Shown one piece after another: positions 1 through 63,840 of a stretch of DNA of 64,000 bases. The notes beneath the pieces were generated by a model. It ran no database searches, was not told the origin of the DNA, and saw only the letters and a program-made list of their open reading frames with translations. The position numbers and the translations under genes were made by a program. Numbering within the stretch: position 1 is the first letter of the stretch; every line of letters starts with the position of its first letter. This stretch comes from Patescibacteria group bacterium (GTDB taxonomy: Bacteria > Patescibacteriota > Microgenomatia > CAYGWK01): the NCBI GenBank assembly GCA_049322615.1, contig JBMORX010000010.1:89416-153415 (forward strand), in the 5' to 3' direction.

Positions 1-3000
1 AGTACCTCCTGTACCAAAGGCTAAACTTCCAGAAGATAGGATTTCGTGCCTGCCAACAGCGACAGTCTCAATTTCGAAGTCCAAGGTTTCAGCACCCAGA
101 CTATTCTGTAGCCGCAAGGGATATTTGGAAGGACTTCCAGCCCCAGGGTCATCAACATTCAGCTTAAAACTTCCCGGCCCCGTCGTCCCGATGCCGACGT
201 TGCCTACCGTATTTACCGTCAAGGCCGGTGTCCAGGCATTAACTCCTGATTTGTAGTCTAGAGTTAAAAGTCCAGCATTTCTTGGTCTGACTGCTCCTCC
301 CGAAGCAAGATATAAATTCCCAGAAACCGAGGCATCTCCGGAGACATCAAGTTTAGCTAAAGGAGAAGTTGTCCCAATTCCAATCTGACTGCCGGTTTCG
401 TAGATTATCGAGTCGGTGAGGGTCGTTGAACCTGACCATTTCGGAATGTAATTTTGCGTTCCGGTTCCCGAAAGAGAGGAGGAAGTGCCCATGACAATCC
501 AGGAAGTTCCATTACAGTAGTACATCTTATCATCTGTGCCGTCATAGTATTGTTTGCCTTTATTTGAGGCGTTACAGGTCCCGGCATAGGCGGGAGCATT
601 GGGTCCAAAACCTAAAGTCCCTGAAATGGTGGCGTTACCGGCAATATCTAGTTTTTGGCTTGGAGAGGTCGTCCCGATGCCGACGTTGCCACTTTTGTCT
701 ACGACGCTTAACACGCCCCCATCGCTATTCTGCCATTGGGTAAGGTCTCCTGTCTGACCTGAAGTTCCTTTAATAATTAATGGTATAGATGCGGCACCAA
801 CTGCACTATCGGCGGTAATTATTGCTGCGTTAGGAAGAAAAGCCTTTCTGCTGCTGTAGGTTAAAACAGGATTTCCATCACTCACTGAGAGAAATCCACT
901 AGATGCATAAATTCCACCACCATTAAAGTAGCCAGTGCCCGCAACTTCCAATTTGTAGGTAGGCCCCGTCGTCCCGATGCCGATATTACCCGCCGAAGTG
1001 ACCACGAAGGCGGGCGTTGCCGTGCCTCCGCCAACGGAATTGCCAATCTGGAGAGAACCATTGTCATACAAATTAATCAAATGAGCCGTGCCACTGCCTC
1101 TGAATGTTAGATTTCCCGAGGCGGAGGCACTCCCGGCAATATCCAAGGTGGCCAATGGTGAAGTTGTTCCAATCCCAATCTGGGAACCGGTTTCGTAAAG
1201 AATCGAATCGGTTAAAGTGCTAGAGGTTGACCATTTGGGAATGTAGTTTTGTGTTCCCGAACCCGAGACCCCACTTGCTCCTGAAGCGACTGCCTTCCAA
1301 GAAGAACCATTACAATAGTAGTATTCGTCGGCAGCATTATCATAGTACATCTTTCCTTCAGCCGCAGCATTACAGGTGCCGGCATAAGCCTGAACTTGGG
1401 GACCTAAAGATAAAGTTCCGGAAATAGTGGCGTCTTCTGCCAAAGTCAGGTCATTGAGAATATAGGTATTATGAGCGACAATCCCATTAGCAACAAAATT
1501 ATGGGTTCCCTCAACCTCAATATCATAGACCTGCTCCTCGCCAACATACTCAATCGAGGCAATTTTCGCCCATTTGACTCGGCTGCCAATTCCTCCACCT
1601 CGGAGGAGCCCCTTCGGGTCACCATCCGAGGTGTCTGCTGTGGCAATTTCCATTCCCGGACGAAGATAGATGACCTTTGTCCACTCGGCGTTGACAAAAG
1701 AATTTTCTTCTGATAGATTATTCTTAATGAGAGGGGTTGATCCAATTTGGCTGTCAATAGTATCAGACCTATTTGTTAACTTGTCTGCCGGTTGGTTTGG
1801 AGTGGTACTTATCGTTCCTAATTTTGCTAAAGAGAAGGGAAGAAGAAAATTGTTGGTCTTGACAACCGATGTATTACTTGGTATATTTTCCTTAGGTGTG
1901 GCATTTGTTTTAAGAAAATTATTATGAGCTCCAAAGACAAAATTGATATTCTCGATGTTAACGCCAGAGCCGCTATTGCTTTTGGTTTGGCCGTAATCGC
2001 TTTGCTCTTGCTTTATATTGCTTTCCTTAAGTAAATCTTGCCAATTTCTCACTAAATATGGGTGATTTCCGGTTGTCCTTATTTGTCTTCCGTCTTCAGT
2101 CGTCAGTCTATAGACTGGTTTGACCCCCATATCCAACAATCCCTTGATTTTGGCCGGCTCAATTTTGCCAGTTTTTTCGTTTAAAGAAAGAACAAGTTCT
2201 CCACCTTTAATATCCTTGATCTGGACGAAGGAGATATTAGGTGATTTTTCTTTTTTGTTTTCGCTCTTAGTATCATAGTCTCTTAGTATCTTAGTATCTT
2301 CTGTTGCCACGATTGGTAAAAGACTGTCGCCAGTAACACACTGTCCCTCAACATGGAGTTTTTGGGCAGGACTCGTCGTCCCGATGCCGACGTTGCCGGT
2401 ATTGATCCAGGAATTGTTACCAGATGTACCAGTGAGTTTTACTAAAGCCGAGGAGGTAGCCGTTGCTCCAAGCAAAACATCATCAGTGATATTGGTGGGG
2501 GAGAGTGCTTGGGCATTTCTTTGCCAATAGCCCGAGGTTCCGGAAGAAGGAGAGTAGATGTTATTGGCATACAAAGCATTCCAATACAAAGATGAAGAAC
2601 CAAGGTTTCTTGTTCCTGTTGCTTCGGGAGTAATATCTCCAGCTACCTGGAGAGCTGATCCTGGATTAGTTAAGCCTATTCCCACATTACCAGAGCTGTT
2701 AACAAACAATCCTGTCGTCCCTGTGGCACCCCGTAGCCAGGCAGTTCCAGCAATCTCTAACTTAGCGCCTGGCGAAGTGGTGCCGATGCCGACGTTGCCG
2801 CTGCTTAATACTAAACTGTCAGACGTGGCGCTGGAATTGATTCTGAATGGATAAGCTCCAGACTGTTGGTTTTTGAAAGCCAGTCCATAGACAGGATTAT
2901 CTGTAGAAATAATCCTGAAATCTACATTAGGGTCTCTCATCAATTCTAAATAGTTATCAGTGCCGTTGCCATTGACTCTTAGGTTGCCTGTTATATCTAG

Positions 3001-6000
3001 TTTTTCACTTGGTGCCGTCGTCCCAATTCCCACATTCCCTAAATTATTAACCGTCAGAGCCGGTGTCCAGGCATTGACTCCGGATTTGTAGTCAAGAGTT
3101 AAAAGTCCAGCATTTCTTGGTCTGACTGCTCCTCCCGAAGCAAGATACAGATTTCCAGAAACTGAAGCATCTCCAGAAACATCAAGTTTAGCTAAAGGCG
3201 AGGTGGTCCCAATTCCAATCTGTCCGCCTGTTTCATAAATTATGGAATCGGTTAAAGATGAAGAAGTACTCCATTTGGGAAGGTAGTTTTGTGTTCCCGA
3301 ACCAGAAACCCCACTTGCTCCTGAAGCCACTGCCTTCCAAGAAGAACCATCACAATAGTAGTATTCATCTTGGGCATTGTCATAGTACATTTTCCCTTCA
3401 GAGGAAGCATCACAGGTTCCCGCATAGGCCTGAACTTGGGGTCCTAGAGCTAAAGTCCCAGAAATAGTGGCGTCTTCTGCCAAAGTCAGGTCATTGGCAA
3501 TATAGGTATTGTGAGCCACAATCCCGTTGGCAACAAAGTTGGCGGTATTGGCAATCTGAAGATCATAGACATGTTTTTTACCAGCAGGCTTGATAGAGAC
3601 AATTTTCTCCCACTTGACCCCGCTATATTCCTTAGCATTCGCCTTTTTAATACTATTCGTATACGGCTCATGCTGCGGATTTACGGGGTCTGCGCCCTGT
3701 ACCGAGAAGGGAACTTGGTGGTGGGGCTTGACATCACCTAATTTACTTGTGGTAGAATGATTATCGATGGGAGAGTTAAAAGGAGAACCCAAAGTATATT
3801 CGGAATTTTTCACTAACGGAGCAGTCGCTTGGCTTTCAGCTGGGGTAATTGCGCCCTTATTTGCCAGAACATTAGGAATGAAGGAGGTAATTGCTTCTTT
3901 GATTTCTATTTCTTCTTGTATATTGTTTTTAAAATTAGCCTCTGATTTTAGCAAGGAGGGTCGATGATTGCTGATAATATTTTGATTGCCTACAGTATTG
4001 GAGTGATTATGAGTAGTATTATAATTATTTATGCCTACTTTCGCTTGAAAAAGTGAGGAATTATGAGTATTGAGACTATTGTTTATATCTTGGCGATTAT
4101 TTTCGGGGTGATTGCTTTCTATATTGCCTTCTTCAAGGTGCGTTAAGTTGGCAACCGCTATTTCTTCCCTTTCTTTTAAGAAAATAACTTTCTTCCACCC
4201 ATCAGGCGTTAGGTACGGGTGATTTCCGGTGGTTTCGATCCTTTTGCCTGATTCGGTTTTTAACTCATAAACTTCCTGAATGCCTTTGTCCAGAGTTTTT
4301 TCCACTTTCTGCCAGGCAAATTCTCCAGTATTTTCGTTTAAGGACAAAACTCTGTCTCCAGGTTTAACATCCTTTATTTGTTTATTTGACATTTGACATT
4401 TGACATTTGACATTTGACATTGTGCTACAGGCACTAAGCTATCCTCGGCCACACATTCTCCTGCTACATGGAGTTTTTTGGAAGGCCCCGTCGTCCCGAT
4501 GCCGACGTTGCCGGTATTGATCCAGGAATTGTTACCAGATGTACCAGTGAGTTTTACTAAAGCCGAGGAGGTAGCCGTTGCTCCAAGCAAAACATCATCA
4601 GTGATATTGGTGGGGGAGAGTGCTTGGGCATTTCTTTGCCAATAGCCCGAGGTTCCGGAAGAAGGAGAGTAGATGTTATTGGCATACAAAGCATTCCAAT
4701 ACAAAGATGAAGAACCCAGGTTTCTTGTCCCCGTTGCCTCGGGAGTAATATCTCCAGCTACCTGTAATTTTGAACCAGGACTTGTCGTCCCGATGCCGAC
4801 GTTGCCGCTAATATACGTGTCCCCGTTACCTAAGATTGAAAGTCCTTTCCCAGTTGTATAATCTGAAAGTGTTACTGCATTATGAGTTGCATCACCTTCA
4901 CCCTTAATAATCCATTCTCCATAAGCAGCAGGCCCGATGAAATAATTATCCGAATCAGAGTGGCGAAAATAATCTACATATAGACTGCTCCAGTGACTTG
5001 TAGACAGACCCAAATGTCGGTTGGCGCCAGAAGGAAGGATATGACCTGCTGCTTGGATACTACCCAAAACATCCAGCTTTTGACCCGGATTCGTCGTCCC
5101 GATGCCGACATAACCTTGTTCGGTCATTACCATTCCCGTTGTCCAGGCATCGGCTCCAGATTTATAGGCAAGTTGGAGTGGTCCGTAGGCAGGTCTAATG
5201 GTTTGTCCTTGACCAATGGTTAGGGTTCCAGACATTGAAGCATTGCCGGTAGTTCCTTCAAAATAGAGTTTGGCAGAAGAAGTGGCGGTTCCCCCAATGG
5301 CGACTGATTCGTAAGTGTTGTTGGGATAAATAACTCCACTGGTCTTTGTCCAATATCCTGAAGTTCCACTCGAGCCGCCATAGATATTATTGACATAAAG
5401 ATTATTCCAGTAAAGTGAAGTAGAACCTAAATCGTAAGTGTTTCCAGAGGAGGGAATGAGATTTGAGGCGACGTTGGCGTTTAAAGTTAAGTTTCCGGCT
5501 AAGGTTAAGGCGTTAAGGTTACCAGTGCCAGAGGAATTGATATAATAGGTGGTTCCGCCGCCAACGCTGATTCCCGCTGATGAGACAATATAAGACGCTG
5601 ATTGTTCGCCGATATCCAAAGAAACACCGCCAGCGCCGGTAATATCGCCGCCGGAAACGGTAATATCACCAGTAAAATAAGAACCAGTGGTATTGGCCCG
5701 AAGAATACCGGCGGCTGAGGCATTGCCGCTATAGTCAACTGTAAACTTAGGAGAAGGCGTCGAGCCGGATTCAAGTTTTAAAAGATTTAAATTGGTATTA
5801 TTGTTGGCTACCGAGCCATATAAAAGAGTATTTGCTTCTCGACCGCCTGATGAGCCGAGATTAGCATCGGTGGCGCTTATCACATTTCCCGTCCCGCCTG
5901 ACAAAGTTAGGTTTAGCACTCCGGAGCCATCGGGTGCTATGGCAATATTGCCGTTGGTGCCGGTATCGGTCACAATCGAGAGCGCCTGACCTCTAATTTG

Positions 6001-6843
6001 AAAAGTGCCTGAAGTTGACCAAATCTTGGGCGAGGCAGAAGCGATAATTAAATTACCTGCCGGATTAATGGCCGGGACAGTTCGGACCGTCGCCCCCATG
6101 GTCGCCGTCGGCTCGGCATTGGTAGCTGAAGCCAGAGGAAATCCTTGCAACGTTTCCGCGTTTAAGGCATAACCGACAGTGGCGATTTGAATTCTTGGAG
6201 TGGCTTCGGAGTCTGAACCAACGGTTATCCCAAGCCAGACCGAGGCGTTTTCCGAAAAAACCGAAGAGGCAATCGCCCCTCCGCAATCAGAGCCCAAAAT
6301 GGTGTTAAAAATTCCATCCTCATCGGGGTCAATTGAGCAGGTGCCCGAATCCCAAAGAGTATTCCCGCCAGAGGAGGCATCATAAAGTCTAAATCTCATG
6401 TTGGTGGCGGTCGTAATCGGAGTATTTGCCGAGTCAGTCAGCCTGCCCTGAAAAGAAAGATAGCGGTTGGGGACAACCGGGGCGGCCGGATAGGCAAGTT
6501 TTTCCGGAGCCTTTTGGATAAACTGCTGGTAAATGCCAAAGCCTAAAGCCGCCAGAAAGATGATTAAGATTAGAAAGTTTAAATAAGTGAAGTAGGGAAG
6601 AGCACGGTAGGCGCGAAGCGGAAGCTTCGCTTTAGAAATTAGTAATTTGTAATTAGTAATTAGAGAAGCCTTTTGGATAAAAGGATTCTCTTTAAGGTAT
6701 CCTTCTCTCACTGCCCAGGAAAAGAACTTTCGCAGCGAGGATTCTTTTCTTTTAAGGCTTTTGGCAGAGGCCCCCCGCATTGCCAGGTATTGGCGGAAAG
6801 TTTTTAGGGTATTTTTATCTATTTTTTGCCAAAAATTAGTCAT
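1..6843 (-). CDS. Giant surface protein (>2,280 aa), partial: the C-terminus lies beyond the window start. Reading from its N-terminus, the domains are a phage-integrase N-terminal SAM-like (core-binding) domain, a transmembrane helix, and a long extracellular region of tail-fibre-like GNVGIGTTSP repeats. It carries two Hint/intein insertions.
   Basis: Start ATG at 6843..6841 overlaps the TGA of the upstream gene (ATGA). I translated the minus strand from 6843 to about 6430 (MTNFWQKIDKNTLKTFRQYLAMRGASAKSLKRKESSLRKFFSWAVREGYLKENPF..., then the TM helix YFTYLNFLILIIFLAALGFGIY), and 4500..660 and 420..1 continuously without stops. The recurring GGCAACGTCGGCATCGGGACGAC (GNVGIGTT) codons at 204, 690, 2397, 4512 and 5115 are all in the same frame relative to 6843. 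The ORF track misses it, probably because no stop lies inside the window. Confidence 0.78.
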   Translation of the reverse strand, partial: MTNFWQKIDKNTLKTFRQYLAMRGASAKSLKRKESSLRKFFSWAVREGYLKENPFIQKASLITNYKLLISKAKLPLRAYRALPYFTYLNFLILIIFLAALGFGIYQQFIQKAPEKLAYPAAPVVPNRYLSFQGRLTDSANTPITTATNMRFRLYDASSGGNTLWDSGTCSIDPDEDGIFNTILGSDCGGAIASSVFSENASVWLGITVGSDSEATPRIQIATVGYALNAETLQGFPLASATNAEPTATMGATVRTVPAINPAGNLIIASASPKIWSTSGTFQIRGQALSIVTDTGTNGNIAIAPDGSGVLNLTLSGGTGNVISATDANLGSSGGREANTLLYGSVANNNTNLNLLKLESGSTPSPKFTVDYSGNASAAGILRANTTGSYFTGDITVSGGDITGAGGVSLDIGEQSASYIVSSAGISVGGGTTYYINSSGTGNLNALTLAGNLTLNANVASNLIPSSGNTYDLGSTSLYWNNLYVNNIYGGSSGTSGYWTKTSGVIYPNNTYESVAIGGTATSSAKLYFEGTTGNASMSGTLTIGQGQTIRPAYGPLQLAYKSGADAWTTGMVMTEQGYVGIGTTNPGQKLDVLGSIQAAGHILPSGANRHLGLSTSHWSSLYVDYFRHSDSDNYFIGPAAYGEWIIKGEGDATHNAVTLSDYTTGKGLSILGNGDTYISGNVGIGTTSPGSKLQVAGDITPEATGTRNLGSSSLYWNALYANNIYSPSSGTSGYWQRNAQALSPTNITDDVLLGATATSSALVKLTGTSGNNSWINTGNVGIGTTGPSKKLHVAGECVAEDSLVPVAQCQMSNVKCQMSNKQIKDVKPGDRVLSLNENTGEFAWQKVEKTLDKGIQEVYELKTESGKRIETTGNHPYLTPDGWKKVIFLKEREEIAVANLTHLEEGNIESNHPENNRQDINNSLNTHNSSLFQAKVGINNYNTTHNHSNTVGNQNIISNHRPSLLKSEANFKNNIQEEIEIKEAITSFIPNVLANKGAITPAESQATAPLVKNSEYTLGSPFNSPIDNHSTTSKLGDVKPHHQVPFSVQGADPVNPQHEPYTNSIKKANAKEYSGVKWEKIVSIKPAGKKHVYDLQIANTANFVANGIVAHNTYIANDLTLAEDATISGTLALGPQVQAYAGTCDASSEGKMYYDNAQDEYYYCDGSSWKAVASGASGVSGSGTQNYLPKWSTSSSLTDSIIYETGGQIGIGTTSPLAKLDVSGDASVSGNLYLASGGAVRPRNAGLLTLDYKSGVNAWTPALTVNNLGNVGIGTTAPSEKLDITGNLRVNGNGTDNYLELMRDPNVDFRIISTDNPVYGLAFKNQQSGAYPFRINSSATSDSLVLSSGNVGIGTTSPGAKLEIAGTAWLRGATGTTGLFVNSSGNVGIGLTNPGSALQVAGDITPEATGTRNLGSSSLYWNALYANNIYSPSSGTSGYWQRNAQALSPTNITDDVLLGATATSSALVKLTGTSGNNSWINTGNVGIGTTSPAQKLHVEGQCVTGDSLLPIVATEDTKILRDYDTKSENKKEKSPNISFVQIKDIKGGELVLSLNEKTGKIEPAKIKGLLDMGVKPVYRLTTEDGRQIRTTGNHPYLVRNWQDLLKESNIKQEQSDYGQTKSNSGSGVNIENINFVFGAHNNFLKTNATPKENIPSNTSVVKTNNFLLPFSLAKLGTISTTPNQPADKLTNRSDTIDSQIGSTPLIKNNLSEENSFVNAEWTKVIYLRPGMEIATADTSDGDPKGLLRGGGIGSRVKWAKIASIEYVGEEQVYDIEVEGTHNFVANGIVAHNTYILNDLTLAEDATISGTLSLGPQVQAYAGTCNAAAEGKMYYDNAADEYYYCNGSSWKAVASGASGVSGSGTQNYIPKWSTSSTLTDSILYETGSQIGIGTTSPLATLDIAGSASASGNLTFRGSGTAHLINLYDNGSLQIGNSVGGGTATPAFVVTSAGNIGIGTTGPTYKLEVAGTGYFNGGGIYASSGFLSVSDGNPVLTYSSRKAFLPNAAIITADSAVGAASIPLIIKGTSGQTGDLTQWQNSDGGVLSVVDKSGNVGIGTTSPSQKLDIAGNATISGTLGFGPNAPAYAGTCNASNKGKQYYDGTDDKMYYCNGTSWIVMGTSSSLSGTGTQNYIPKWSGSTTLTDSIIYETGSQIGIGTTSPLAKLDVSGDASVSGNLYLASGGAVRPRNAGLLTLDYKSGVNAWTPALTVNTVGNVGIGTTGPGSFKLNVDDPGAGSPSKYPLRLQNSLGAETLDFEIETVAVGRHEILSSGSLAFGTGGT
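1468..2340 (-). other. Intein / Hint-domain insertion 1 (291 aa) within the giant protein. It runs from Cys1 (codon 2340..2338) to the terminal Asn of VAHN (codon 1470..1468), with Thr at +1.
   Basis: Translation reads ...NTGNVGIGTTSPAQKLHVEGQ|CVTGDSLLPIVATEDTKILRD...TTGNHPYLV...VYDIEVEGTHNFVANGIVAHN|TYILNDLTLAEDATISGTL. Textbook intein blocks are present: A (C-x-x-x-D-S-L), B (TTGNHPY) and F/G (NFVANGIVAHN), followed by T. The central linker has no LAGLIDADG or HNH motif. Confidence 0.75.
3508..4455 (-). other. Intein / Hint-domain insertion 2 (316 aa), at the homologous site of the duplicated module. It runs from Cys1 (codon 4455..4453) to Asn (codon 3510..3508), with Thr at +1.
   Basis: Translation reads ...GIGTTGPSKKLHVAGE|CVAEDSLVPVAQCQMSNVKCQMSNVKCQMSNKQ...TTGNHPYLT...HVYDLQIANTANFVANGIVAHN|TYIANDLTLAEDATISGTL. 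The central region is N/S/H-rich and low-complexity, with no endonuclease motifs. Confidence 0.75.
4387..4421. repeat. Perfect 5x TGACATT heptanucleotide tandem repeat inside intein 2 of the giant gene. It encodes the QMSNVKC repeats.
   Basis: Sequence at 4387-4421 is tgacatt x5. Seven is not a multiple of three, so a +/-1 unit change shifts the reading frame. Confidence 0.9.
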
Positions 6844-8689: not shown

Positions 8690-8750
8690 GCAAAAGCTTC
8701 GGCGGGCAAGCCGAATTTAAATAATCCGAATTAATCCGAATAGATTGACA
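8690..8750. repeat. CCGAAT-rich repeat element, copy 1. It contains ATCCGAATGCATCC ... CCGAATTTAAATAATCCGAATTAATCCGAATA and overlaps a putative promoter.
   Basis: A near-identical copy lies in inverted orientation at 60795-60870. A ttgaca at 8737-8742, a tatcat and a GAGGA RBS sit upstream of the ATG at 8788. Confidence 0.5.
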
Positions 8751-10577: not shown

Positions 10578-10596
10578 GACAGGGTCCGTCCCTGTC
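10578..10596. repeat. REP-like palindromic hairpin GACAGGGTCCGTCCCTGTC, copy 1, flanking the IS200-like tnpA.
   Basis: Perfect 7-bp stem with a TCCG loop. Identical copies lie at 10790-10808 and 11301-11319. Confidence 0.8.
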
Positions 10597-11328: not shown

Positions 11329-12321
11329 TTAGGTGGTTTTCTCTTTGGGGGTCTCTTCTTCAAGTTCTTCTTTTTCTTTTTGGCGCCGGCGGAGAAAAAG
11401 GACAATAAGAATAGCGATGACAATCGCCAAGACTATCGCCAGGGCGATCCTGACTGGAAAAACAACAAAGTAGAGGGTGGCAAGCAAAACCTGACCGGTC
11501 GTTCCATAAGAAGCCGATAAATCTGCCCGATAGCGACCCAAAAGATATTTAGCGTTCCAGGTATTTTGATAGATAAAAGAGGCACTGGGAAAAATATTTC
11601 TTTCCTCAAGGGGCATAACCGTGGTTACTTTACCCAACATATTTCTGACCGTAATCGTCCCCTTTGGGGCAAGATGCAAATCAGAGAGATTTAAAATCTC
11701 CGTGGTGAACTTAACCGGTCCAAATTCTAAAAACTTTGGGGCGTCGAATAATTTGACTAAAGCCCGTTCTGTTACCGGTCCTTCAACCGTAAAATAAACC
11801 AAAGTTCCAACCACTTGCTGAATAGCGGTACCGGCCCCCGTACCCGCCCCAATTCGGGGGGGAGTCCCTTTTGACTGATATAAAACTCCGGCATAATGTC
11901 CTCCAGGTAGGGCATCCAAAGGAACGTTAGCGGAGACAACGATATTAACTGTTTGTTTTGGAGCAACTGCCACTGAAGTTGGGGAAAGTCTAATCCAGGA
12001 AGAAGCCGCCCAGCGACCAGAAACTTGGGCGCCGACAAACTCCGGAGTTCCGGCGGTATCCTTGACAATAAAATCCTTGGCAACGACGGCTAGGTAGGCA
12101 GTCTCGTCTCCTTCATTTCGAAATTGAATAGTTTTTTGAACAAACTCTCCGGGCTTGACTTTGACTTCTAAACGAGGAGGAATGGCGGTAAAAATCTGGG
12201 TCTGCGCCCGCGCGAAGCGCGGAATAAGCAAATAAGCAAATAAGCAAATGACAAATAAGCCAATAATAAGAAATTTGAAATTTGAAATTTGAAATTTGAA
12301 ATTGATTTGTTTATTTGACAT
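11329..12321 (-). CDS. C-terminally membrane-anchored surface protein B1 (330 aa). It has a signal peptide, a beta-rich ectodomain, a C-terminal TM helix and a charged tail.
   Basis: MSNKQINFKFQISNFKFLIIGLFVICLFAYLLIPRFARAQ... then IPPRLEVKVKPGEFVQKTIQFRNEGDETAYL... and a C-terminal ALAIVLAIVIAILIVLFLRRRQKEKEE. It is a paralog of 14433..15452. The architecture is reminiscent of DUF916-type anchor proteins of WxL loci (from memory, unverified). Confidence 0.6.
   Translation of the reverse strand: MSNKQINFKFQISNFKFLIIGLFVICLFAYLLIPRFARAQTQIFTAIPPRLEVKVKPGEFVQKTIQFRNEGDETAYLAVVAKDFIVKDTAGTPEFVGAQVSGRWAASSWIRLSPTSVAVAPKQTVNIVVSANVPLDALPGGHYAGVLYQSKGTPPRIGAGTGAGTAIQQVVGTLVYFTVEGPVTERALVKLFDAPKFLEFGPVKFTTEILNLSDLHLAPKGTITVRNMLGKVTTVMPLEERNIFPSASFIYQNTWNAKYLLGRYRADLSASYGTTGQVLLATLYFVVFPVRIALAIVLAIVIAILIVLFLRRRQKEKEELEEETPKEKTT
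12271..12298. repeat. 4x AAATTTG heptanucleotide tandem repeat within codons 6-16 of B1, followed by three 8-nt TTGCTTAT units that form the signal-peptide core.
   Basis: aaatttg x4 at 12271-12298 encodes the NFKFQISNFKF segment on the minus strand. Confidence 0.85.
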
Positions 12322-15473: not shown

Positions 15474-16268
15474 TTAGTAGGTTGGTGTTGCCACAAAAAT
15501 AATATAGTTCTCATAATCTCCCGCCGCCTGGCTTCCCGAGATATTGACTTTATAAGTAACCGTTCCCACCCTATTTTTGCCCACCTGGGAACTTGACATG
15601 ACTATGCTTGGGTCCTCTGAGGCTGCCAAAGAGGGAAAAGGACGAAAATAAGTAGAGTTGACAAAAGTCGCCGGAATATCTTGTCCTTGCATATTATAGC
15701 CAAAACCATACTTAGTATTATCTGTCCAAGGCTGGGCCGTGGTTTCATCGCAGGTTTGGGCTCCACCATTACAGGTAGTATCGGAAATAGTGGCTGTTCC
15801 TGCCAGGGTTTTTAAGGTATCACTTTCTCGGGCGGTCACCTGATAGCCGCCGGCGCCACCGGCGGAAACAGTTAAAGTATTGGTTTGGGTTGAGGGTGTC
15901 CCTGGAGTTAAAGTGCCAAAATCAATAGATAAATCAGAGATTGTAAACCGGAAAGGGATGATGGACTTAAGATACCAAAAACCGCTTCTTACCTTGTATC
16001 CAGTTGAAGTGTAGAGTCCGGGAGCAGTCTGCCCGCCGGTGACCCCAAGTTTATAACTTGAGGAAGTGGGTAGCCCGGCGCCCATATTGACATTGCCCAT
16101 CTGGATTTTATAAGAATCGGAAGATAAGTTCTCGGCGCGAGCGCCTCGAGTAATAAGCAAATAAGCAGAGCTTGTTGCTACGCAATAAGCAAATAAGCAA
16201 ATAAGCAAATAAGCAAATAATTTGAAATTTGAAATTTGAAATTGATTTGACATTTGCTTATTTGACAT
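15474..16268 (-). CDS. Secreted surface protein A2 (264 aa), paralog of A1, with the C-terminus SGSQAAGDYENYIIFVATPTY.
   Basis: The N-terminus MSNKQMSNQFQISNFKLFAYLLICLFAYCVATSSAYLLITRGARA is encoded largely by tandem 7/8-nt repeats. The body is Thr/Gly-rich. Confidence 0.6.
   Translation of the reverse strand: MSNKQMSNQFQISNFKLFAYLLICLFAYCVATSSAYLLITRGARAENLSSDSYKIQMGNVNMGAGLPTSSSYKLGVTGGQTAPGLYTSTGYKVRSGFWYLKSIIPFRFTISDLSIDFGTLTPGTPSTQTNTLTVSAGGAGGYQVTARESDTLKTLAGTATISDTTCNGGAQTCDETTAQPWTDNTKYGFGYNMQGQDIPATFVNSTYFRPFPSLAASEDPSIVMSSSQVGKNRVGTVTYKVNISGSQAAGDYENYIIFVATPTY
16221..16241. repeat. 3x TTTGAAA heptamer tract in the A2 5' coding region. It is flanked by 4x AATAAGCA octamers (16170-16210) and GACATTT heptamers (16244-16280) around the start codon.
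   Basis: Read directly at 16170-16280. Confidence 0.85.
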
Positions 16269-17134: not shown

Positions 17135-19678
17135 TTGCGATTAATGGACAAACGGATTAAATATGAGCCAGCAAAGATAGAACCTAAATGGCAAAAAAAA
17201 TGGGAGAGAGCCAAAATCTTCAAAGCCACGGATTTTGCCAAAAAGAAAAAATACTACGCCTTGGTTGAATTTCCTTATCCATCTGGTGAAGGTCTTCATC
17301 TTGGTCATGCTTTTACCTGCACCATTTTAGATATTTTTGCCCGAAAAAAAAGAATGAGCGGGGAAAATGTTTTGTATCCCATGGGCTGGGATGCCTTTGG
17401 TTTGCCGACGGAAAATTATGCCATTCGGACAGGGATTCATCCGGCGGTGGCGACTAAAAAAAATACTGATCAGTTTCGAGCCCAGATGAAACGCTTGGCT
17501 TTTGCCTACAACTGGGAGCGGGAGATAAACACCACCGACCCAAACTATTACAAATGGACCCAGTGGATTTTTATTCAGATGTTTAAGCATGGCTTGGCTT
17601 ATAAAGCGGAAACACCGGTTGGTTGGTGTCCTTCCTGCAAGATTATTTTAGCCAATGAGGAAATCGTTGGGGGAAAATGCGAGAGATGTGGAGCGGTGGC
17701 TGAATACCGAAGACAGAAACAATGGCTTTTGCAGATTACCGCTTATGCCGATCGCTTAATTGACGAGCTTGACTTGGTTGATTATCCGGATTATGTCAAG
17801 ACGGCCCAAATAAACTGGATTGGCAAAACTTCTGGAGTGGTCATTGAGTATCCGGTGGTCGGTTCCAATTTAACCATTTCCTGTTACAGCACCCGGCCAG
17901 ATACGAATTTTGGAGCCACTTTTGTCGCCATTGCTCCGGAGCATCCCATCCTTCGCCAATTAAAAATTTCCGCCTTTGGCGGGAAAAACGAAAAATTAAA
18001 AATTGATTTAGAGAAATATATCGAAATGGCAAAAAAGAAATCAGAACTGGAGCGGACTGAACTGGCGAAAGAGAAGACAGGCGTTTTTACTGGTAATTAT
18101 GCCCTAAACCAACTTTCGGGAAAGAAAATGCCAATTTATGTTTCTGATTTTGTGGTTTTGACAGCGGGGACGGGAATTGTGGTTGGCGTGCCTGCTCATG
18201 ATCAGAGAGACTTTGAGTTTGCCAAAAAATATAACTTGGAAATTATCCCGGTTGTTAAACCCAAGAAAGGGGAGTGGGATTTTGCCAAAGGTCCATTTTT
18301 GGATATTGATGAAGCCACGGTTTTTAATTCCGATTTCCTAAATGGTCTACCGGCTTTGGAGGCAAAAGAAAAAATAATTGATTATCTGATGAAGAAAGGC
18401 TGGGGCAAAAAGGCAACTAATTATCATCTTCGCGACTGGATTTTCTCTCGGCAGCACTATTGGGGCGAGCCGATCCCCATGATTTATTGTCCCACTTGTG
18501 CCAGAAAGGGAATAAAACCGGAGGTGTCAATAGGCGTCCACCTTAGAGGTGGACTAGATAGGACACCTCGGGAGATGGCGGGCTGGTTTCCTGTTCCCGA
18601 AGAAGATTTACCAGTTAAGTTGCCAAAAGTTGAAAGATATAAGCCTTCAGAGAGCGGCGAATCGCCCTTGGCGAAAATTAAAGAATGGGTAGAGGTGGCT
18701 TGCCCAAAGTGTGGCAAAGCCGCCCGAAGGGAGACCGATACCATGCCCAATTGGGCGGGTTCCTCGTGGTATTTTTTAAGATATTGCGACCCAAAAAATC
18801 AAAAATGTCTGGCTGACCCCAAAAAACTTAGGTACTGGATGCCAGTTGATATCTATCTGGGCGGCGCCGAGCATACCACCTTGCATCTTTTATATTCTCG
18901 CTTTTGGCATAAGTTTTTAAATGACATTGGGGTGGCGCCCGGTAAAGAGCCTTATGCCGCCCGTCGTCAGCATGGAGTAATCTTAGGTGAAGATGGTTTT
19001 CGGATGAGCAAGTCACGGGGGAATGTTATCAATCCCGATGAGGTGATTTCTCAATTCGGGGTCGATACCTTAAGAGTTTATTTAATGTTTATGGGACCAT
19101 ACGAGTCAACGATGCCCTGGAGCAGCGAGGGAGTTGAGGGTTGCTTTCGCTTTTTAAAACGAGTTTGGCAATTAGTTCAAGAGAAAGTTCGATCTTTTAA
19201 AACGCCCAAACACCTTGAGGTTTCCCTTCATCAAACGATTAAAAAGGTTTCTGAAAATATTGAGGATTTGAAGTTTAACACCGCCTTAGCCAGGATGATG
19301 GAGTTTGTGAATCAATGGTCTAAGCCGGGAATGTTTTTGAACAAGAAAGAGGCAAAAGTTTTCCTGCAGCTTTTAGCCCCTTTTGCTCCTTATTTAAGTG
19401 AGGAATTATGGAGTCGTTTAGGCGGAAAATTTTCTATCCATACTTCTGCTTGGCCAAAATATGATAAAAAATTGATTGAGGAGGAGATAGTGACGGTTAT
19501 AGTTCAGATAAACGGCAAACTCCGGGATAAAATAGAAATGGGAAGTGAGAAATGCGGAGTGAGAAGTGAGATTGAGAGATTGGCGAGGGAGAGCGAGAAA
19601 ATTAAAAAATATCTTGCGGGCAAAAAGATCAAAAAAGTCATCTTCGTCCCCGGAAAACTAATAAATTTTGTACTCTAG
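17135..19678 (+). CDS. leuS: Leucyl-tRNA synthetase.
   Basis: 847 aa with HIGH motif (HLGHAF), PMGWDAFGLP, and KMSKS (RMSKSRGN). The length fits bacterial LeuRS. Confidence 0.95.
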   Translation: MRLMDKRIKYEPAKIEPKWQKKWERAKIFKATDFAKKKKYYALVEFPYPSGEGLHLGHAFTCTILDIFARKKRMSGENVLYPMGWDAFGLPTENYAIRTGIHPAVATKKNTDQFRAQMKRLAFAYNWEREINTTDPNYYKWTQWIFIQMFKHGLAYKAETPVGWCPSCKIILANEEIVGGKCERCGAVAEYRRQKQWLLQITAYADRLIDELDLVDYPDYVKTAQINWIGKTSGVVIEYPVVGSNLTISCYSTRPDTNFGATFVAIAPEHPILRQLKISAFGGKNEKLKIDLEKYIEMAKKKSELERTELAKEKTGVFTGNYALNQLSGKKMPIYVSDFVVLTAGTGIVVGVPAHDQRDFEFAKKYNLEIIPVVKPKKGEWDFAKGPFLDIDEATVFNSDFLNGLPALEAKEKIIDYLMKKGWGKKATNYHLRDWIFSRQHYWGEPIPMIYCPTCARKGIKPEVSIGVHLRGGLDRTPREMAGWFPVPEEDLPVKLPKVERYKPSESGESPLAKIKEWVEVACPKCGKAARRETDTMPNWAGSSWYFLRYCDPKNQKCLADPKKLRYWMPVDIYLGGAEHTTLHLLYSRFWHKFLNDIGVAPGKEPYAARRQHGVILGEDGFRMSKSRGNVINPDEVISQFGVDTLRVYLMFMGPYESTMPWSSEGVEGCFRFLKRVWQLVQEKVRSFKTPKHLEVSLHQTIKKVSENIEDLKFNTALARMMEFVNQWSKPGMFLNKKEAKVFLQLLAPFAPYLSEELWSRLGGKFSIHTSAWPKYDKKLIEEEIVTVIVQINGKLRDKIEMGSEKCGVRSEIERLARESEKIKKYLAGKKIKKVIFVPGKLINFVL

Positions 19679-19689
19679 TTTGCCCCCTT

Positions 19690-22528: not shown

Positions 22529-22740
22529 TGGCTCGGGAATGAATTTGTTGCTTGGATTTAGTGATGGCTCCCGCCAATTAGGCGGGACCAGCTCGCGACT
22601 GGGTAATTCGAAACTCAAGTTGTGTTCCAGGGGGTCGCGGCTTGGAACGTCAGACGTTCCTTGCCACTTAAATCCGGCGCAAAAATTATTCCCTCGCCCT
22701 TAATTTCTTAATATCTTAGTCTCTTAATATCTTTTATTTT
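22529..22740 (+). repeat. R-element copy 3 (P1 is GGGAATGAATT/AATTATTCCC) plus the 3' tail CCTCGCCCTTAATTTCTTAATATCTTAGTCTCTTAATATCTT, which runs up to the ATG at 22741.
   Basis: Shares the same boxes. The tail is shared with copy 4 (32770-32811), which ends at the mreB ATG. Confidence 0.7.
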
Positions 22741-24452: not shown

Positions 24453-26204
24453 ATGATTCGCGACCAGATTAAAAAAGATTTTGGAAAGGTTTTGGAAAAA
24501 CTGCGGATTTCCCCGGAGAAATTGGTTTTTGAGCACCCAGAAAATCCCGAATTTGGCGATTATTCGACGAATATTGCCCTAAAATTAAAAGTCAAAAGTC
24601 AAAAGTTAAAAGTTGCCAATCCTTTTGATTTGGCAAACAAAATTGTCAACACCTGGCGCTCTCAGGGATTGCCTGACTGGTTAGCCAAAATCCAGGTTGC
24701 TCCGCCGGGATTTATTAATTTGTGGCTAAAAGAAGACCTTCTTATCGGTCAACTTTCCCAAGTGCTAAGAGAAAAAGATGGATTCGGCAGGCTCGCCATT
24801 GGTAAGGGCAAAACCGTCATCGTTGACTATTCTTCGCCCAATATTGCCAAGCCTTTTGGTATCGGTCATCTTCGCTCAACCATTATTGGTCAGGCGCTTT
24901 ATAATCTTTATAAATTCTTGGGTTTTAAGGTTATCGGTGATAACCATTTGGGCGATTGGGGGACACAATTTGGGAAATTAATTTACCAAATTAAAAGTCA
25001 AAAATTAAAAGTTAAAAATTTGACGATTGAGGATTTGGAGAGACTCTACGTTGACTTTCATAAGAAGGCAGAAGAAAATCCCAAACTTGAGGATGAGGCA
25101 AGAGCCTGGTTTAAAAAACTTGAAGAAGGGGATAAAGAGGCGAGAAAAATCTGGCAAGCCTGTGTCGATATATCCCTCCGGGAATTTGCCCGAGTTTATA
25201 AACTTTTAGGCATAAAATTTGACGTTTCTTACGGCGAAAGTTTTTATGAAGGTAAAATGGCAGAGGTTGTCTTTGAAGCCAAGAAAAAGGGAATCGCCAA
25301 AGAAAGCCAAGGCGCCCTGATTATTCCCATCCCAGGAATGGAAACTCCTTTGATGCTTTTAAAATCTGATGGGGCGACCACCTACGAAACCCGGGAGTTG
25401 GCAACGATTAAATATAGAAAAAAGCGCTGGCACCCGGTTCTTGCGATTTGGGAAGTTGGAGCAGATCAAAAATTTCATTTTCTAAAGTCTTTTGCCGCCG
25501 CCGAACTACTTGGTTACGGAAAAATGCAGCAGTTTGTTCATGTTCCTCATGGTTTGATACGGTGGGTTTATGGCAAATTTTCCACCAGAAAAGGAGAGAC
25601 AATTCATTTGGAAGAGGTTTTAAGTGAGGCAATAAAGCGGGCGGAAAAGATAATTTCCGAATCGGAAACCAGTCGCGGACTTTCCAAAAAAGAGAAAAAA
25701 GAGGTCGCCGAAGCGGTTGGGGTTGGAGCAGTTGTCTATTTTGATCTATCTCATCAGCCGGAAACAGACATTATTTTTGACTGGGAGAAGATTTTTGTTT
25801 TGGAGGGCAATTCCGGACCGTATTTACAGTATACTTATGCTCGTTGCCAGTCGGTCTTGGCTAAAGCCAAACTTAAGCAATTTAGCAATCTAGCAATCGA
25901 GCAATCTAGCAATTTGAACCCGGAAGAATTATCAATTTTGCGCACCATTTACAAGTTTCCTGAAGTGGTTCAATCTTCAGCCGAGGCTTTCTCGCCAAAT
26001 CTGCTTTGCAATTTTCTTTTTGATTTGTGCCAAAAATATAATCTTTTTTACCAAAAACACCCGATCCTGAAACCGCAAAAACGCGGAAATTTAGCAGAAA
26101 CGCAGAAAATAAGAGAACTCCGACTTGGTTTAACCGCCGCCACTGGTCAGGTTTTGCAGAATGGATTGACGTTATTGGGAATAAAAACATTGGAGAGAAT
26201 GTAA
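24453..26204 (+). CDS. argS: Arginyl-tRNA synthetase.
   Basis: 583 aa with SSPNIAKPFGIGHLRSTIIGQALYNLYKF (class-I HIGH region of ArgRS). It contains two in-frame copies of an AAAAGTCAAAAGT-type repeat (24588-24612 and 24988-25018, peptide KSQKLKV) and a 4x ~8-nt AGCAATCT repeat (25880-25912). Confidence 0.93.
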   Translation: MIRDQIKKDFGKVLEKLRISPEKLVFEHPENPEFGDYSTNIALKLKVKSQKLKVANPFDLANKIVNTWRSQGLPDWLAKIQVAPPGFINLWLKEDLLIGQLSQVLREKDGFGRLAIGKGKTVIVDYSSPNIAKPFGIGHLRSTIIGQALYNLYKFLGFKVIGDNHLGDWGTQFGKLIYQIKSQKLKVKNLTIEDLERLYVDFHKKAEENPKLEDEARAWFKKLEEGDKEARKIWQACVDISLREFARVYKLLGIKFDVSYGESFYEGKMAEVVFEAKKKGIAKESQGALIIPIPGMETPLMLLKSDGATTYETRELATIKYRKKRWHPVLAIWEVGADQKFHFLKSFAAAELLGYGKMQQFVHVPHGLIRWVYGKFSTRKGETIHLEEVLSEAIKRAEKIISESETSRGLSKKEKKEVAEAVGVGAVVYFDLSHQPETDIIFDWEKIFVLEGNSGPYLQYTYARCQSVLAKAKLKQFSNLAIEQSSNLNPEELSILRTIYKFPEVVQSSAEAFSPNLLCNFLFDLCQKYNLFYQKHPILKPQKRGNLAETQKIRELRLGLTAATGQVLQNGLTLLGIKTLERM

Positions 26205-30650: not shown

Positions 30651-31241
30651 ATGCTGCCTAAATACAAATACCTTTTGACTTACCGTTATGCCGAAATTAT
30701 TCAGGACGGAACAAACGATTTTTGTCTAAGACACTTAAGTGACTTAAGAAACTTAAGAATTCCTACGAGGCGGACTGTCGAGCAGATGACGCAAAGCGGC
30801 CGGAGTCTGAAACAAAATATTATTGAGGCAGTAAGCGATAGTCTGACTTCGAAAAAAACCGAGATTAAACTTTTGGGAGTAGCCTACGGTTCGGTTGAAG
30901 AATTGATTGCCGATTTTGAAGATTTTTTAAGACAAAGAAACCTGCAAATTTGGCCGAAAACAGATAAGCGAGTCTTAATCTTTCGTCGACTTGGGTATCG
31001 CTTAAGTAACCTAAGTAACCTAAGTAACCTAAGTAACCTAAGTAACTTAGGAAACTTAAAAGAAAAACTAGTTTTACCGGAAAATCCCGAAGAAGCGGCC
31101 AATTTACTTTTGACTTTGTGTCACATGGAGAGTTATCTTTTAAGTTGTCAAATTAAAGCGGCGGAAGAAAAATTTATCAAAGAAGGCGGCTACACGGAAA
31201 ACTTGTTTAAAAAGCGCCTTGAAAGTAGAATACTTAAGTAA
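30651..31241 (+). CDS. Four-helix-bundle protein with suffix (196 aa). It contains an in-frame tandem repeat.
   Basis: RRTVEQMTQSGRSLKQNIIEA...EGGYTENLFKKRLESRILK. An internal 5x 12-nt repeat AAGTAACCTAAG (31002-31056) encodes LSNLSNLSNLSNLGNL. Confidence 0.55.
   Translation: MLPKYKYLLTYRYAEIIQDGTNDFCLRHLSDLRNLRIPTRRTVEQMTQSGRSLKQNIIEAVSDSLTSKKTEIKLLGVAYGSVEELIADFEDFLRQRNLQIWPKTDKRVLIFRRLGYRLSNLSNLSNLSNLSNLGNLKEKLVLPENPEEAANLLLTLCHMESYLLSCQIKAAEEKFIKEGGYTENLFKKRLESRILK
31002..31056. repeat. 5x 12-nt tandem repeat (CTTAAGTAACCT-type) inside the four-helix-bundle gene. Further CTTAAG-containing repeats lie at 30740-30770 and 31232-31265.
   Basis: cttaagtaacctaagtaacctaagtaacctaagtaacctaagtaacttagga. 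Confidence 0.85.
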
Positions 31242-39063: not shown

Positions 39064-39110
39064 TTTTTGTTTTGTTTTGTTTTGTTTTGTTTTGTTTTGT
39101 TTTGTTTTGT
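39064..39110. repeat. (TTTTG)x9 pentanucleotide microsatellite in the rplJ upstream region.
   Basis: gtttttgttttgttttgttttgttttgttttgttttgttttgt. Confidence 0.9.

Positions 39111-62904: not shown

Positions 62905-63840
<936 letters not shown>

What the first reader, a model, noticed from the sequence alone, without database searches (positions are those of the whole stretch)
4387..4421. Heptanucleotide repeat tracts in coding regions, candidate contingency loci
Perfect tandem 7-nt repeats sit inside ORFs. TGACATT x5 lies in intein 2 of the giant gene. AAATTTG x4 (12271-12298) and TTTGAAA x3 (16221-16241) form the signal-peptide codons of two surface proteins. GTCTTCT x4 (63049-63076) lies in fmt. 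Seven is not a multiple of three, so gain or loss of a single unit shifts the frame and would switch the gene on or off by slipped-strand mispairing. The same units (GACATTT, GAAATTT) also recur around the start codons and promoters of the surface-protein genes (12299-12330, 16244-16280). Phase variation of this kind is not something I know to be described for CPR-type genomes.
Basis: partly seen in the sequence, partly recalled or inferred. Interest (0 to 1): 0.75.

Follow-up and report, generated by a model that had tools for sequence, protein, structure and literature searches.

The report
Pervasive 7–8-base tandem arrays inside genes
The four perfect 7-base repeat tracts are real, but they are only the cleanest of more than fifty short tandem arrays scattered through this small candidate-phyla-radiation genome, including loops of essential enzymes, so they look like a genome-wide slippage habit filtered by selection rather than dedicated on/off switches.

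Summary
All four heptamer tracts exist where stated and are far beyond chance: 8 perfect arrays against 0.04 expected, and 54 TRF arrays against 1.1. They are not special loci. The window carries 0.84 arrays per kb, mostly of period 7, 8, 14 or 16. That is about six times the mean of 80 control loci. Arrays lie in intergenic DNA, in signal-peptide codons and in variable loops of essential proteins: LeuRS, ArgRS (3), RNase HII (3), Fmt (2), WecG and both inteins. Twenty-two of 29 in-gene arrays have non-triplet periods, yet none sits at a frame-shifted gene junction. Most arrays are degenerate. In 14 of 22, the consensus unit would create stop codons if iterated perfectly. Relatives carry different arrays in the same loops. 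Some imperfect arrays recur between unrelated genes, for example 33/33 nt shared by Fmt and RNase HII. The best reading is a genome-wide slippage or template-switch process producing long-motif simple sequence repeats, filtered by selection for open frames. A contingency function is not supported for the intein or fmt tracts. It is untested, though conceivable, for the two secreted-protein genes. Read-level copy-number data are needed.

The parts
4384..4421 (-). Perfect heptamer array ATTTGAC x5.4 (coding strand AAATGTC). It encodes AQCQMSNVKCQMSN in a loop of the N-terminal splicing domain of intein A.
3508..4455 (-). Mini-intein A of the giant ORF (Cys1 ... VAHN|T), host of the heptamer array.
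2265..2300 (-). Octamer array TCTTAGTA x4.5 in the equivalent loop of intein B (1468-2340). It encodes DTKILRDYDTK.
1..6843 (-). Giant surface-protein ORF, running off the window. It has an N-terminal Phage_int_SAM-like domain, a TM helix and two inteins. It also holds array 6632-6663 (TTAGTAA x4.6, encoding LITNYKLLIS).
12270..12303 (-). Perfect heptamer array GAAATTT x4.9, forming the n-region codons (NFKFQISNFKF) of the signal peptide of secreted protein 11329-12321.
12223..12266 (-). Octamer array AATAAGCA x5.6 (coding strand TGCTTATT), encoding the hydrophobic core IGLFVICLFAYLLI of the same signal peptide.
11329..12321 (-). Secreted DUF916-like protein (NCBI MFZ5366531.1, annotated with the same start). 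Orthologues share the mature N-terminus AQTQIFTAIPPRLE behind hypervariable signal peptides.
16219..16243 (-). Perfect heptamer array AATTTGA x3.6, forming n-region codons (QFQISNFK) of secreted protein 15474-16268. A degenerate continuation with GACATTT units runs to 16282 across the start codon.
16184..16220 (-). Perfect octamer array AATAAGCA x4.6, encoding LFAYLLICLFAY, the signal-peptide core.
15474..16268 (-). Secreted protein. Orthologues in L083 and L084 also have signal peptides, and the L084 one is also array-encoded.
63042..63078 (-). Heptamer array GTCTTCT x5.1 (perfect 63048-63078; coding strand AGAAGAC). It encodes QKTEDRRQKTVR, about 7 residues longer than the hairpin loop of E. 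coli FMT.
63601..63638 (-). Octamer array (coding strand CTTAATAT family) in Fmt, encoding FLNILISQYPNI. Positions 63601-63633 are 33/33 nt identical to RNase HII 46559-46591.
   Evidence: (I14)
62905..63840 (-). Methionyl-tRNA formyltransferase gene.
46559..46593 (+). CTTAATAT-family array in RNase HII (LNILISQYPNI). With 46513-46543 it forms an insertion of about 24 aa between conserved blocks. A third array lies at 46308-46342.
24580..24614 (+). ArgRS array 1 (TAAAAGT x5.1, KLKVKSQKLKV). Arrays 2 (24988-25020) and 3 (25876-25913) lie in two other variable loops.
19534..19565 (+). LeuRS array (period 14, GAAGTG family). It occupies a variable loop with no length change against 29 homologues.
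34753..34815 (+). GAAGTGG x9 array in the WecG/TagA glycosyltransferase, an insertion of about 13 aa.
22699..22733 (+). CTTAATAT-family array immediately upstream of the ATG of the MBL-fold gene. The identical imperfect array at 32773-32809 precedes mreB.
   Evidence: (D10, D20)
31003..31046 (+). Perfect 9-mer array TAAGTAACC x4.9 (SNLSNLSN...) in an IVP-like ORF. This is a triplet-period example.
39065..39110 (.). Perfect intergenic pentamer array TTTTG x9.2.

Best explanation
The tracts are the youngest, still perfect members of a genome-wide population of long-motif simple sequence repeats with units mainly of 7 and 8 nt. This Patescibacteria (CPR) genome generates them by slipped-strand mispairing or short-range template switching.

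Inferred steps:
- Arrays arise everywhere, both by local expansion of native seeds and by ectopic copying between arrays of the same unit family.
- Selection removes arrays that shift the frame, introduce stop codons or hit constrained residues.
- Survivors therefore accumulate in intergenic DNA, in 5' ends and signal-peptide codons, and in variable surface loops of proteins, including essential ones, where they are translated as short insertions or replacements.
- They then decay by point mutation.

On this view the four tracts are mutational hazards. Any change of one or two units would be a null mutation. They are not evolved switches.

Shown: abundance, location, frame integrity, degeneracy, recurrence in the same loops in relatives, and shared imperfect arrays.

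Inferred: the slippage or template-switch mechanism and the absence of adaptive switching.
For: Excess over chance and over other genomes: 54 arrays against 1.1 expected. Density is 0.84/kb against a mean of 0.147, median 0.089 and maximum 0.61 per kb in 80 control loci totalling 1.41 Mb. Periods 7, 8, 14 and 16 make up 67% of arrays, against 33% in the controls.

Distribution fits a mutation-plus-selection filter. Density is 1.49/kb in non-coding DNA, 1.41/kb in the first 120 nt of genes and 0.55/kb in gene interiors. All three are far above the 0.017/kb chance level.

In-gene arrays sit in alignment-variable loops of LeuRS, ArgRS, RNase HII, WecG, Fmt and both inteins.

Of 29 in-gene arrays, 22 have non-triplet periods, yet none lies at a frameshifted ORF junction. 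In 14 of 22, the consensus unit would give stop codons if perfectly iterated, and the real copies carry the changes that remove them. All perfect in-gene arrays use stop-free units.

A native seed is visible in ArgRS loop 3: the LAI motif is shared with orthologue L085. Relatives carry different arrays in the same LeuRS and ArgRS loops and in orthologous signal peptides. The trait is patchy among relatives, from 0 to 0.35/kb.

Literature: heptamers are the over-represented long SSR class in bacteria, and polymerase slippage has been proposed as the cause (PMC4692102).
Against: Single-unit slippage cannot build a 7- or 8-nt array inside an essential gene without passing through frame-shifted intermediates. 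Multi-unit events, templated patches or some form of tolerance must therefore be invoked, and none of these is shown.

Identical imperfect arrays in unrelated genes (33/33 nt between Fmt and RNase HII) and genome-specific unit families with 5 copies per 64 kb need an inter-locus copying step beyond simple slippage.

Arrays persist at the N-termini of the orthologous secreted-protein genes in a relative with 67% LeuRS identity. This could reflect function rather than mere tolerance.

No population data were available, so stability of the unit number is assumed, not shown.
Confidence: 0.62

Rival explanations
1. True contingency loci, restricted to the two secreted-protein genes. The heptamer tracts right after the ATG change by slippage and switch the signal-peptide-bearing proteins on and off, as in neuO or opa. 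The arrays elsewhere are unrelated background.
For: The tracts are perfect, lie within the first 20 codons, and a change of one or two units truncates the products to 27-71 aa. The genes belong to a conserved cell-surface cluster. Orthologues have hypervariable, repeat-like signal peptides. The relative L084 also has heptamer arrays at these N-termini. There is precedent for a heptanucleotide switch in 5' coding sequence (PMC13001214).
Against: There are only 3.6-4.9 copies, against 3-53 (most commonly 20) in neuO. All array-bearing genes of the cluster are ON in both genomes seen, whereas 66% of neuO alleles are OFF. Identical array types occur in essential genes, so their presence is not diagnostic. 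Signal peptides are simply very tolerant of sequence.
Confidence: 0.15
2. Active spread of array cassettes. Pre-formed arrays of about 30-40 nt are copied between loci, by templated insertion, ectopic gene conversion or an element-encoded activity such as the Y1 transposases or IVP-gene elements. They are not grown in place.
For: The imperfect sequence CTTAATATCTTAATATCTCAATATCCTAATATC occurs 33/33 nt in both Fmt and RNase HII. Near-identical arrays occur twice in ArgRS, in the giant ORF and ORF 9622-10569, and in ArgRS and ORF 7495-7986. The intein tract plus its flank is 96% identical to the 5' end of a secreted-protein gene (D19). The LeuRS array replaces a loop without length change. Unit families are genome-specific. 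Two Y1_Tnp genes and five IVP-like genes lie in the window.
Against: Units are very diverse, with more than 20 different heptamers. No target-site duplications or shared flanks are seen beyond the arrays. A native seed is visible in ArgRS. The shared reading frame is forced, because only one phase of these arrays is stop-free. No enzyme is linked to the arrays.
Confidence: 0.15
3. Assembly or sequencing artefact in a metagenome-assembled genome.
For: The source is a MAG. Short-read assemblers mishandle repeats. The Logan contig of the same run breaks near repeats.
Against: An independent Logan assembly reproduces 17106-19717, including the LeuRS array, at 100%. Its 3' break is explained by a repeated hairpin. 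All in-gene arrays preserve long ORFs with homologous sequence on both sides. Arrays are shorter than read length.
Confidence: 0.02

Closest known systems
Long-motif simple sequence repeats (5-11 nt units, heptamers most common) over-represented in some bacterial genomes (Mrazek et al. 2007, as summarised in PMC4692102); examples are GGGAATC repeats in Xanthomonas and GGGGA(T/C)T repeats in Nostoc
   Same: Tandem units of 7-8 nt, with a genome-wide statistical excess. Several loci share a unit. Length and sequence turn over between relatives. Polymerase slippage has been proposed as the cause, rather than a specific physiological role.
   Different: The described cases are mainly intergenic and occur in large genomes. 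Here 59% of array bases lie in coding sequence of a small CPR genome, including essential genes, and there are many unit families rather than one G-rich one.
Cyanobacterial STRR heptanucleotide repeats (Calothrix/Nostoc; own knowledge, mentioned in PMC4692102)
   Same: Species-specific heptamer families dispersed in many short tandem arrays.
   Different: STRRs are described as intergenic, and translation of arrays inside conserved proteins has not been described. Membership is not claimed.
neuO of E. coli K1: heptanucleotide (AAGACTC)n in the 5' coding region, ON only when n is divisible by 3 (PMC13001214)
   Same: A 7-nt unit in the first codons of a gene. The frame logic is identical.
   Different: neuO has 3-53 repeats (most commonly 20), and 66% of genomes are OFF, with measured intra-culture heterogeneity. 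Here there are 3.6-5.4 copies, no OFF allele, no polymorphism data, and the same arrays also occur in essential genes.
Neisseria opa genes: CTCTT repeats in signal-peptide codons (own knowledge)
   Same: The repeat tract lies inside the signal-peptide coding region of surface proteins.
   Different: Same differences as for neuO. opa switching is experimentally established.
Borg tandem repeats that create amino-acid repeats (PMC9879509)
   Same: Pervasive, rapidly evolving, lineage-specific tandem repeats. About half lie in ORFs without disrupting them, and they add variable or disordered segments to proteins.
   Different: In Borgs all in-ORF units are divisible by three. Here 22 of 29 in-gene arrays have non-triplet periods, so each array is read in all three phases.
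Slippage-driven low-complexity insertions in Plasmodium falciparum housekeeping proteins, and in-frame Rickettsia palindromic elements (own knowledge)
   Same: DNA-level repeat processes insert translated filler into tolerant loops of conserved, even essential, proteins.
   Different: The organisms, unit structure and sizes differ. RPEs are palindromic elements of 100-150 bp, not tandem 7-8-mers.

Membership tests
SSR contingency locus (phase variation) | Repeat tract in an ORF or promoter whose unit length is not a multiple of three, so that unit gain or loss changes expression | tested here: met
   7-nt units inside ORFs. Simulated changes of one or two units truncate the products, and a change of three units restores the frame.
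SSR contingency locus (phase variation) | Unit-number polymorphism within populations or among close strains | not testable with these tools
   No reads are available. The nearest relative has 74% LeuRS identity. The only second assembly covers 17106-19717 and is identical.
SSR contingency locus (phase variation) | Both ON and OFF alleles found among genomes or loci | tested here: not met
   No array lies at a junction of frame-shifted ORF halves. All array-bearing genes of the secreted-protein cluster are intact here and in L084. The sample is small: two genomes.
SSR contingency locus (phase variation) | Tracts concentrated in surface, host-interaction or restriction-modification genes and avoided in essential genes | tested here: not met
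   Equivalent arrays lie in LeuRS, ArgRS, RNase HII, Fmt, WecG and inteins. Two of the four cited tracts are in secreted proteins.
SSR contingency locus (phase variation) | Long, perfect tract maintained so that slippage is frequent | tested here: inconclusive
   The four tracts are perfect but have only 3.6-5.4 copies. Most arrays are 70-95% matched. No rate data exist for such tracts in this organism.
Genome-wide long-motif SSRs (5-11 nt units) | Tandem iteration of units of 5-11 nt | tested here: met
   Periods 7, 8 and 9, and their doubles 14 and 16, dominate.
Genome-wide long-motif SSRs (5-11 nt units) | Statistical over-representation across the genome rather than at a few loci | tested here: met
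   54 arrays against 1.1 expected, and 0.84/kb against 0.147/kb in controls. Only 64 kb of the genome was seen.
Genome-wide long-motif SSRs (5-11 nt units) | Predominantly intergenic location, as described for the Xanthomonas and Nostoc heptamers | tested here: not met
   Density is 2.2 times higher in non-coding DNA, but 59% of array bases and 34 of 54 arrays lie in coding sequence.
Borg-type tandem repeats giving amino-acid repeats | In-ORF repeat units divisible by three | tested here: not met
   22 of 29 in-gene arrays have non-triplet periods.

The most novel reading that the evidence does not exclude
Arrays of 7-8 nt are propagated in this lineage as ORF-compatible cassettes by an active templated copying process. 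Their unit-by-unit growth inside essential genes is tolerated because frameshifts are partly suppressed in translation, for example by the tRNA at 47912-47987, whose 8-nt anticodon loop (CUCUUAAA) is of the kind that reads four bases. If so, the genome would couple a hyper-slippery repeat system to a natural frameshift-suppressing tRNA.
Probability: 0.06. Interest if true: 0.85.

Novelty: new variant of a known kind. Interest (0 to 1): 0.42.

Why it matters
CPR/Patescibacteria have tiny genomes and reduced DNA-repair repertoires. This window suggests that such a genome can devote about 5% of its sequence to 7-8-nt tandem arrays and translate many of them inside essential proteins.

If confirmed genome-wide, four things follow:
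- It gives a natural system for studying how non-triplet microsatellites arise and survive in coding DNA.
- It shows how signal peptides and loop insertions can be minted from repeats.
- It raises the question of whether reduced repair drives protein-sequence innovation in symbionts.
- It warns annotators that perfect non-triplet repeats in ORFs are not, on their own, evidence of phase variation.

Real phase variation in a CPR episymbiont's surface proteins would still be of interest. It can be tested cheaply with the existing reads.

Tried and rejected
1. Exact-protein look-ups for four window proteins found nothing. Only LeuRS was on record, on a 2.6-kb Logan contig identical to the window. 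No second allele was obtained.

2. The genome-contig scan with LeuRS gave relatives of 61% identity or less. The 5.8-billion-protein search gave 74% or less. Strain-level comparison of unit numbers is therefore impossible.

3. I asked whether the Logan contig ends signal heterogeneity. The 3' end coincides with a repeated hairpin, CTTAATTACTGTGCCGTAATTAAG, so they are uninformative.

4. A scan for OFF alleles, meaning frame-shifted ORF pairs abutting an array, gave three candidates. All are trivial: adjacent genes, an antisense frame, and an upstream ORF with no homology.

5. I considered that the secreted-protein arrays might be 5' UTR rather than signal peptide, because of the upstream 24-nt motif. 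I rejected this because orthologues all carry signal peptides ending AxA before a conserved mature N-terminus, and NCBI annotates the same start.

6. The shared reading frame of shared arrays was considered as evidence for copying. It is discounted because only one phase is stop-free.

It gave 12 hits, none of them a tRNA.

8. Rfam found only tRNAs.

9. The promoter and terminator consensus scan was uninformative.

10. The Mrazek 2007 paper is not held in the library, so it is cited through PMC4692102.
Full report
OBSERVATION

The four tracts are present as described.
- ATTTGAC x5.4 at 4384-4421.
- GAAATTT x4.9 at 12270-12303.
- AATTTGA x3.6 at 16219-16243.
- CTGTCTT x4.4 at 63048-63078 (5.1 copies at 96% over 63042-63078).

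A scan for perfect repeats finds eight arrays of at least three copies in the window, against 0.04 expected from third-order Markov sequences. TRF gives 106 non-redundant arrays. Of these, 54 score 45 or more, against 1.1 expected. Periods 7 (13 arrays), 8 (11) and 14 (10) dominate, and periods 3, 6 and 12 are nearly absent. Arrays cover 5.3% of the 64 kb.

CONTEXT

The window comes from an NCBI metagenome-assembled genome labelled 'Patescibacteria group bacterium'. LeuRS is MFZ5366537.1 and the locus tags begin ACOZBZ_. An independent Logan assembly of run SRR32167786 reproduces 17106-19717 exactly.

The tract at 4384-4421 lies in the minus-strand giant ORF (1-6843). It sits 11-23 residues after Cys1 of a mini-intein and encodes AQCQMSNVKCQMSN. 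The paralogous second intein carries a different array, TCTTAGTA x4.5 at 2265-2300, in the same loop.

The tracts at 12270 and 16219 encode the polar n-region right after the ATG of two secreted proteins. The hydrophobic cores of those signal peptides are encoded by 8-mer arrays of AATAAGCA (LFAYLLIC...). These signal peptides are genuine. NCBI annotates the same start. Forty-odd orthologues all show a hypervariable leader ending in AxA, followed by the conserved mature N-terminus QTQIFTAIPPRLE. Orthologues of the second protein in L083 and L084 also have leaders.

The fmt tract encodes QKTEDRRQKTVR. This is a hairpin-loop segment of the C-terminal domain, about 7 residues longer than in E. 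coli FMT.

THE ARRAYS ARE NOT CONFINED TO PLAUSIBLE SWITCH GENES

Pfam and PDB comparisons place arrays inside several conserved proteins.
- LeuRS: one array in a variable loop, with exactly the same length as in 29 homologues.
- ArgRS: three arrays in three variable loops, with net changes of -2 to +4 residues against orthologues.
- RNase HII: three arrays, two of which form an insertion of about 24 residues.
- WecG/TagA: GAAGTGG x9, about 13 extra residues.
- Fmt: a second array, encoding FLNILISQYPNI.
- Arrays also lie in or next to the leaders of ribosomal-protein and nusG genes.

Using a curated gene table, array density is 1.49/kb in non-coding DNA, 1.41/kb in the first 120 nt of genes and 0.55/kb in gene interiors. 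The chance level is 0.017/kb. Eighty control loci around LeuRS genes (1.41 Mb of CPR and Firmicutes sequence) average 0.147/kb, with median 0.089 and maximum 0.61. The window has 0.84/kb.

SIGNATURES OF SELECTION ON THE ARRAYS

Of 29 arrays lying wholly inside genes, 22 have non-triplet periods, so each is read in all three phases. Even so, no array lies at a junction of two frame-shifted ORF halves.

For 14 of the 22, the consensus unit would create stop codons if perfectly iterated. The actual copies carry exactly the substitutions that remove those stops. For example, the TAA that a perfect CTTAATAT array would create is CAA in the real sequence. All perfect in-gene arrays use units that are stop-free in the coding direction. 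Most arrays are degenerate, at 70-95% matches.

This is what is expected if arrays arise indiscriminately and only frame-preserving, stop-free outcomes in tolerant sites persist.

RELATIVES

Synteny around LeuRS is conserved in contigs whose LeuRS is 67-71% identical. Their array densities are 0, 0.07, 0.26 and 0.35 per kb.

L084 has its own array in the same LeuRS loop and heptamer arrays in the signal peptides of the orthologous secreted proteins. L083 has its own array in ArgRS loop 3. The same tolerant positions therefore collect different arrays in different lineages. In ArgRS loop 3 the unit contains an ancestral motif: LAI, shared with L085. This points to local expansion from a native seed.

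INTER-LOCUS COPYING

Some imperfect arrays recur.
- The 33-nt sequence CTTAATATCTTAATATCTCAATATCCTAATATC is identical in RNase HII and Fmt (I14).
- An identical but different variant precedes the start codons of the MBL-fold gene and mreB, as part of a larger repeated element.
- Near-identical arrays occur twice in ArgRS (KSQKLKVK), in the giant ORF and ORF 9622-10569 (LITNY[K/Q]LLI), and in ArgRS and ORF 7495-7986.
- The intein tract with its flank is 96% identical to the 5' end of gene 15474-16268 (D19).

The unit families CTTAATAT, GAAGTGG, TTATTTGC, AGCAATCT and TAAGTAACC are absent from 1.47 Mb of other loci.

The shared reading frame is not independent evidence of copying, because only one phase of these arrays is open. 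The sequence identity, however, does require copying. Ectopic conversion or templated repair between arrays is the simplest inference.

ASSESSMENT OF THE CONTINGENCY-LOCUS READING

The frame logic is correct, and a direct precedent exists. neuO of E. coli K1 has a heptanucleotide tract in the 5' coding region and is ON only when the copy number is divisible by three. Copy numbers range from 3 to 53, and 66% of sequenced alleles are OFF (PMC13001214).

Here the tracts have 3.6-5.4 copies. Every array-bearing gene is ON in the two genomes available. The same arrays sit in essential genes. For the intein and fmt tracts an adaptive switch is implausible. For the two secreted proteins it remains possible but untested, and I give it about 0.15.

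The defining test is unit-number polymorphism. It could not be run, because no reads are available and no relative exceeds 74% LeuRS identity.

COMPARISON WITH WHAT IS KNOWN

[quoted passage not shown] So are heptamer families in Xanthomonas, Nostoc and Calothrix (PMC4692102). Those cases are mainly intergenic.

Borg elements show pervasive tandem repeats that add disordered segments to proteins, but all in-ORF units there are multiples of three (PMC9879509).

I found no paper that links Patescibacteria with tandem repeats or phase variation.

What differs here is the density of non-triplet arrays translated inside conserved, even essential, proteins of a small CPR genome, together with the sharing of array variants between unrelated genes. 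I rate this a new variant of a known kind and of moderate interest.

OPEN PUZZLE

A 7- or 8-nt array cannot grow one unit at a time inside an essential gene without lethal intermediates. Possible ways around this are multi-unit events, templated patches copied from arrays that grew in non-coding DNA, or transient tolerance of frameshifts.

In that context the tRNA at 47912-47987 is worth noting. It has an 8-nt anticodon loop, CUCUUAAA. Expanded loops characterise +1 frameshift-suppressor tRNAs such as SufJ (PMC4238358). None of 54 tRNAs in the other loci has such a loop, and a metagenome scan for its anticodon arm found no other tRNA. It may equally be an assembly indel or a pseudogene. The link to the arrays is speculation.

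Noticed in passing
window 47912-47987 (-): A tRNA gene with an 8-nt anticodon loop, CUCUUAAA, which looks like Lys-CUU with one extra A. ARAGORN reports a 4-base anticodon 'ctta', and Rfam scores it as tRNA at 54.7 bits with one extra loop nucleotide. Loops of this kind are typical of +1 frameshift-suppressor tRNAs. None of 54 tRNAs in the other fetched loci has one. A metagenome scan for the anticodon arm gave 12 hits, none of them a tRNA. It could be an assembly indel or a pseudogene.
   Followed up: partly
window 22300-22460, 22524-22702, 32616-32776 (partial copies at 20987-21040, 35126-35170, 40017-40061): A repeated element of about 165 nt that folds into a long hairpin-like structure. 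RNAalifold predicts 56 pairs, of which 11 show compensatory double changes, six of them in a 26-bp closing helix. There is no Rfam match at E<=1. Two copies end at a CTTAATAT array directly before the start codons of the MBL-fold gene and mreB. It is a candidate structured leader, non-coding RNA or hairpin-type mobile element.
   Followed up: partly
window 10544-10567, 16160-16183, 30319-30342, 35345-35368, 40969-40992, 52086-52133, 60801-60824: A 24-nt motif, GCGAAGCAACAAGCTTTGCTTATT (dyad AAGCA-N8-TGCTT), present in 8 copies. Most lie 20-70 nt upstream of start codons in gene orientation (L1, L33, a sigma factor and secreted-protein genes). Its 3' end equals the TGCTTATT array unit. It may be a promoter or operator element and the seed of the 8-mer arrays.
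   Followed up: partly
window 6840-7490, 9219-9611, 13946-14326, 23619-24104, 30651-31241; 10595-11281 and 42468-43175: Five genes resembling 23S-rRNA-IVP (four-helix-bundle) proteins and two IS200-like Y1 transposase genes lie within 64 kb. Several are inserted between genes that are adjacent in relatives, and they are flanked by arrays. They look like cargo of small selfish elements.
   Followed up: no
window 26222-26312 and 51794-51884: A 91-nt dispersed inverted repeat, 92% complementary, itself built of short tandem units of period 8, 17 and 25. One copy lies in the ArgRS-M16 spacer and the other in the tRNA-Trp-rpmG spacer. A further pair lies at 8711-8742 and 60821-60852 (97%).
   Followed up: no
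window 19692-19715, 19740-19763, 20236-20259: A repeated REP-like hairpin, CTTAATTAC-TGTGCC-GTAATTAAG, after the LeuRS gene and the next gene. It coincides with the end of the Logan contig. Its arms resemble the CTTAAT/AATTAAGA array units.
   Followed up: partly
window 13794-13850: A 17-nt-period array (TGTCAATATCTACTTTA x3.4) upstream of secreted-protein gene 12340-13785. On the gene strand each unit carries TTGACA, with TAAAGT or TAGAGT 17 nt downstream, so it forms tandem overlapping promoter-like sites.
   Followed up: no
window 40107-40994 and 41536-42150: The ribosomal protein L1 and NusG ORFs have long N-terminal extensions or leaders, about 75 and 30 codons before the conserved domains, that contain arrays. 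It is unclear whether these are translated.
   Followed up: no
L084 11395-11434 and 12401-12447; L083 10923-10986: Relatives with 67-68% LeuRS identity carry their own, unrelated arrays in the same LeuRS and ArgRS loops as the window genome.
   Followed up: yes
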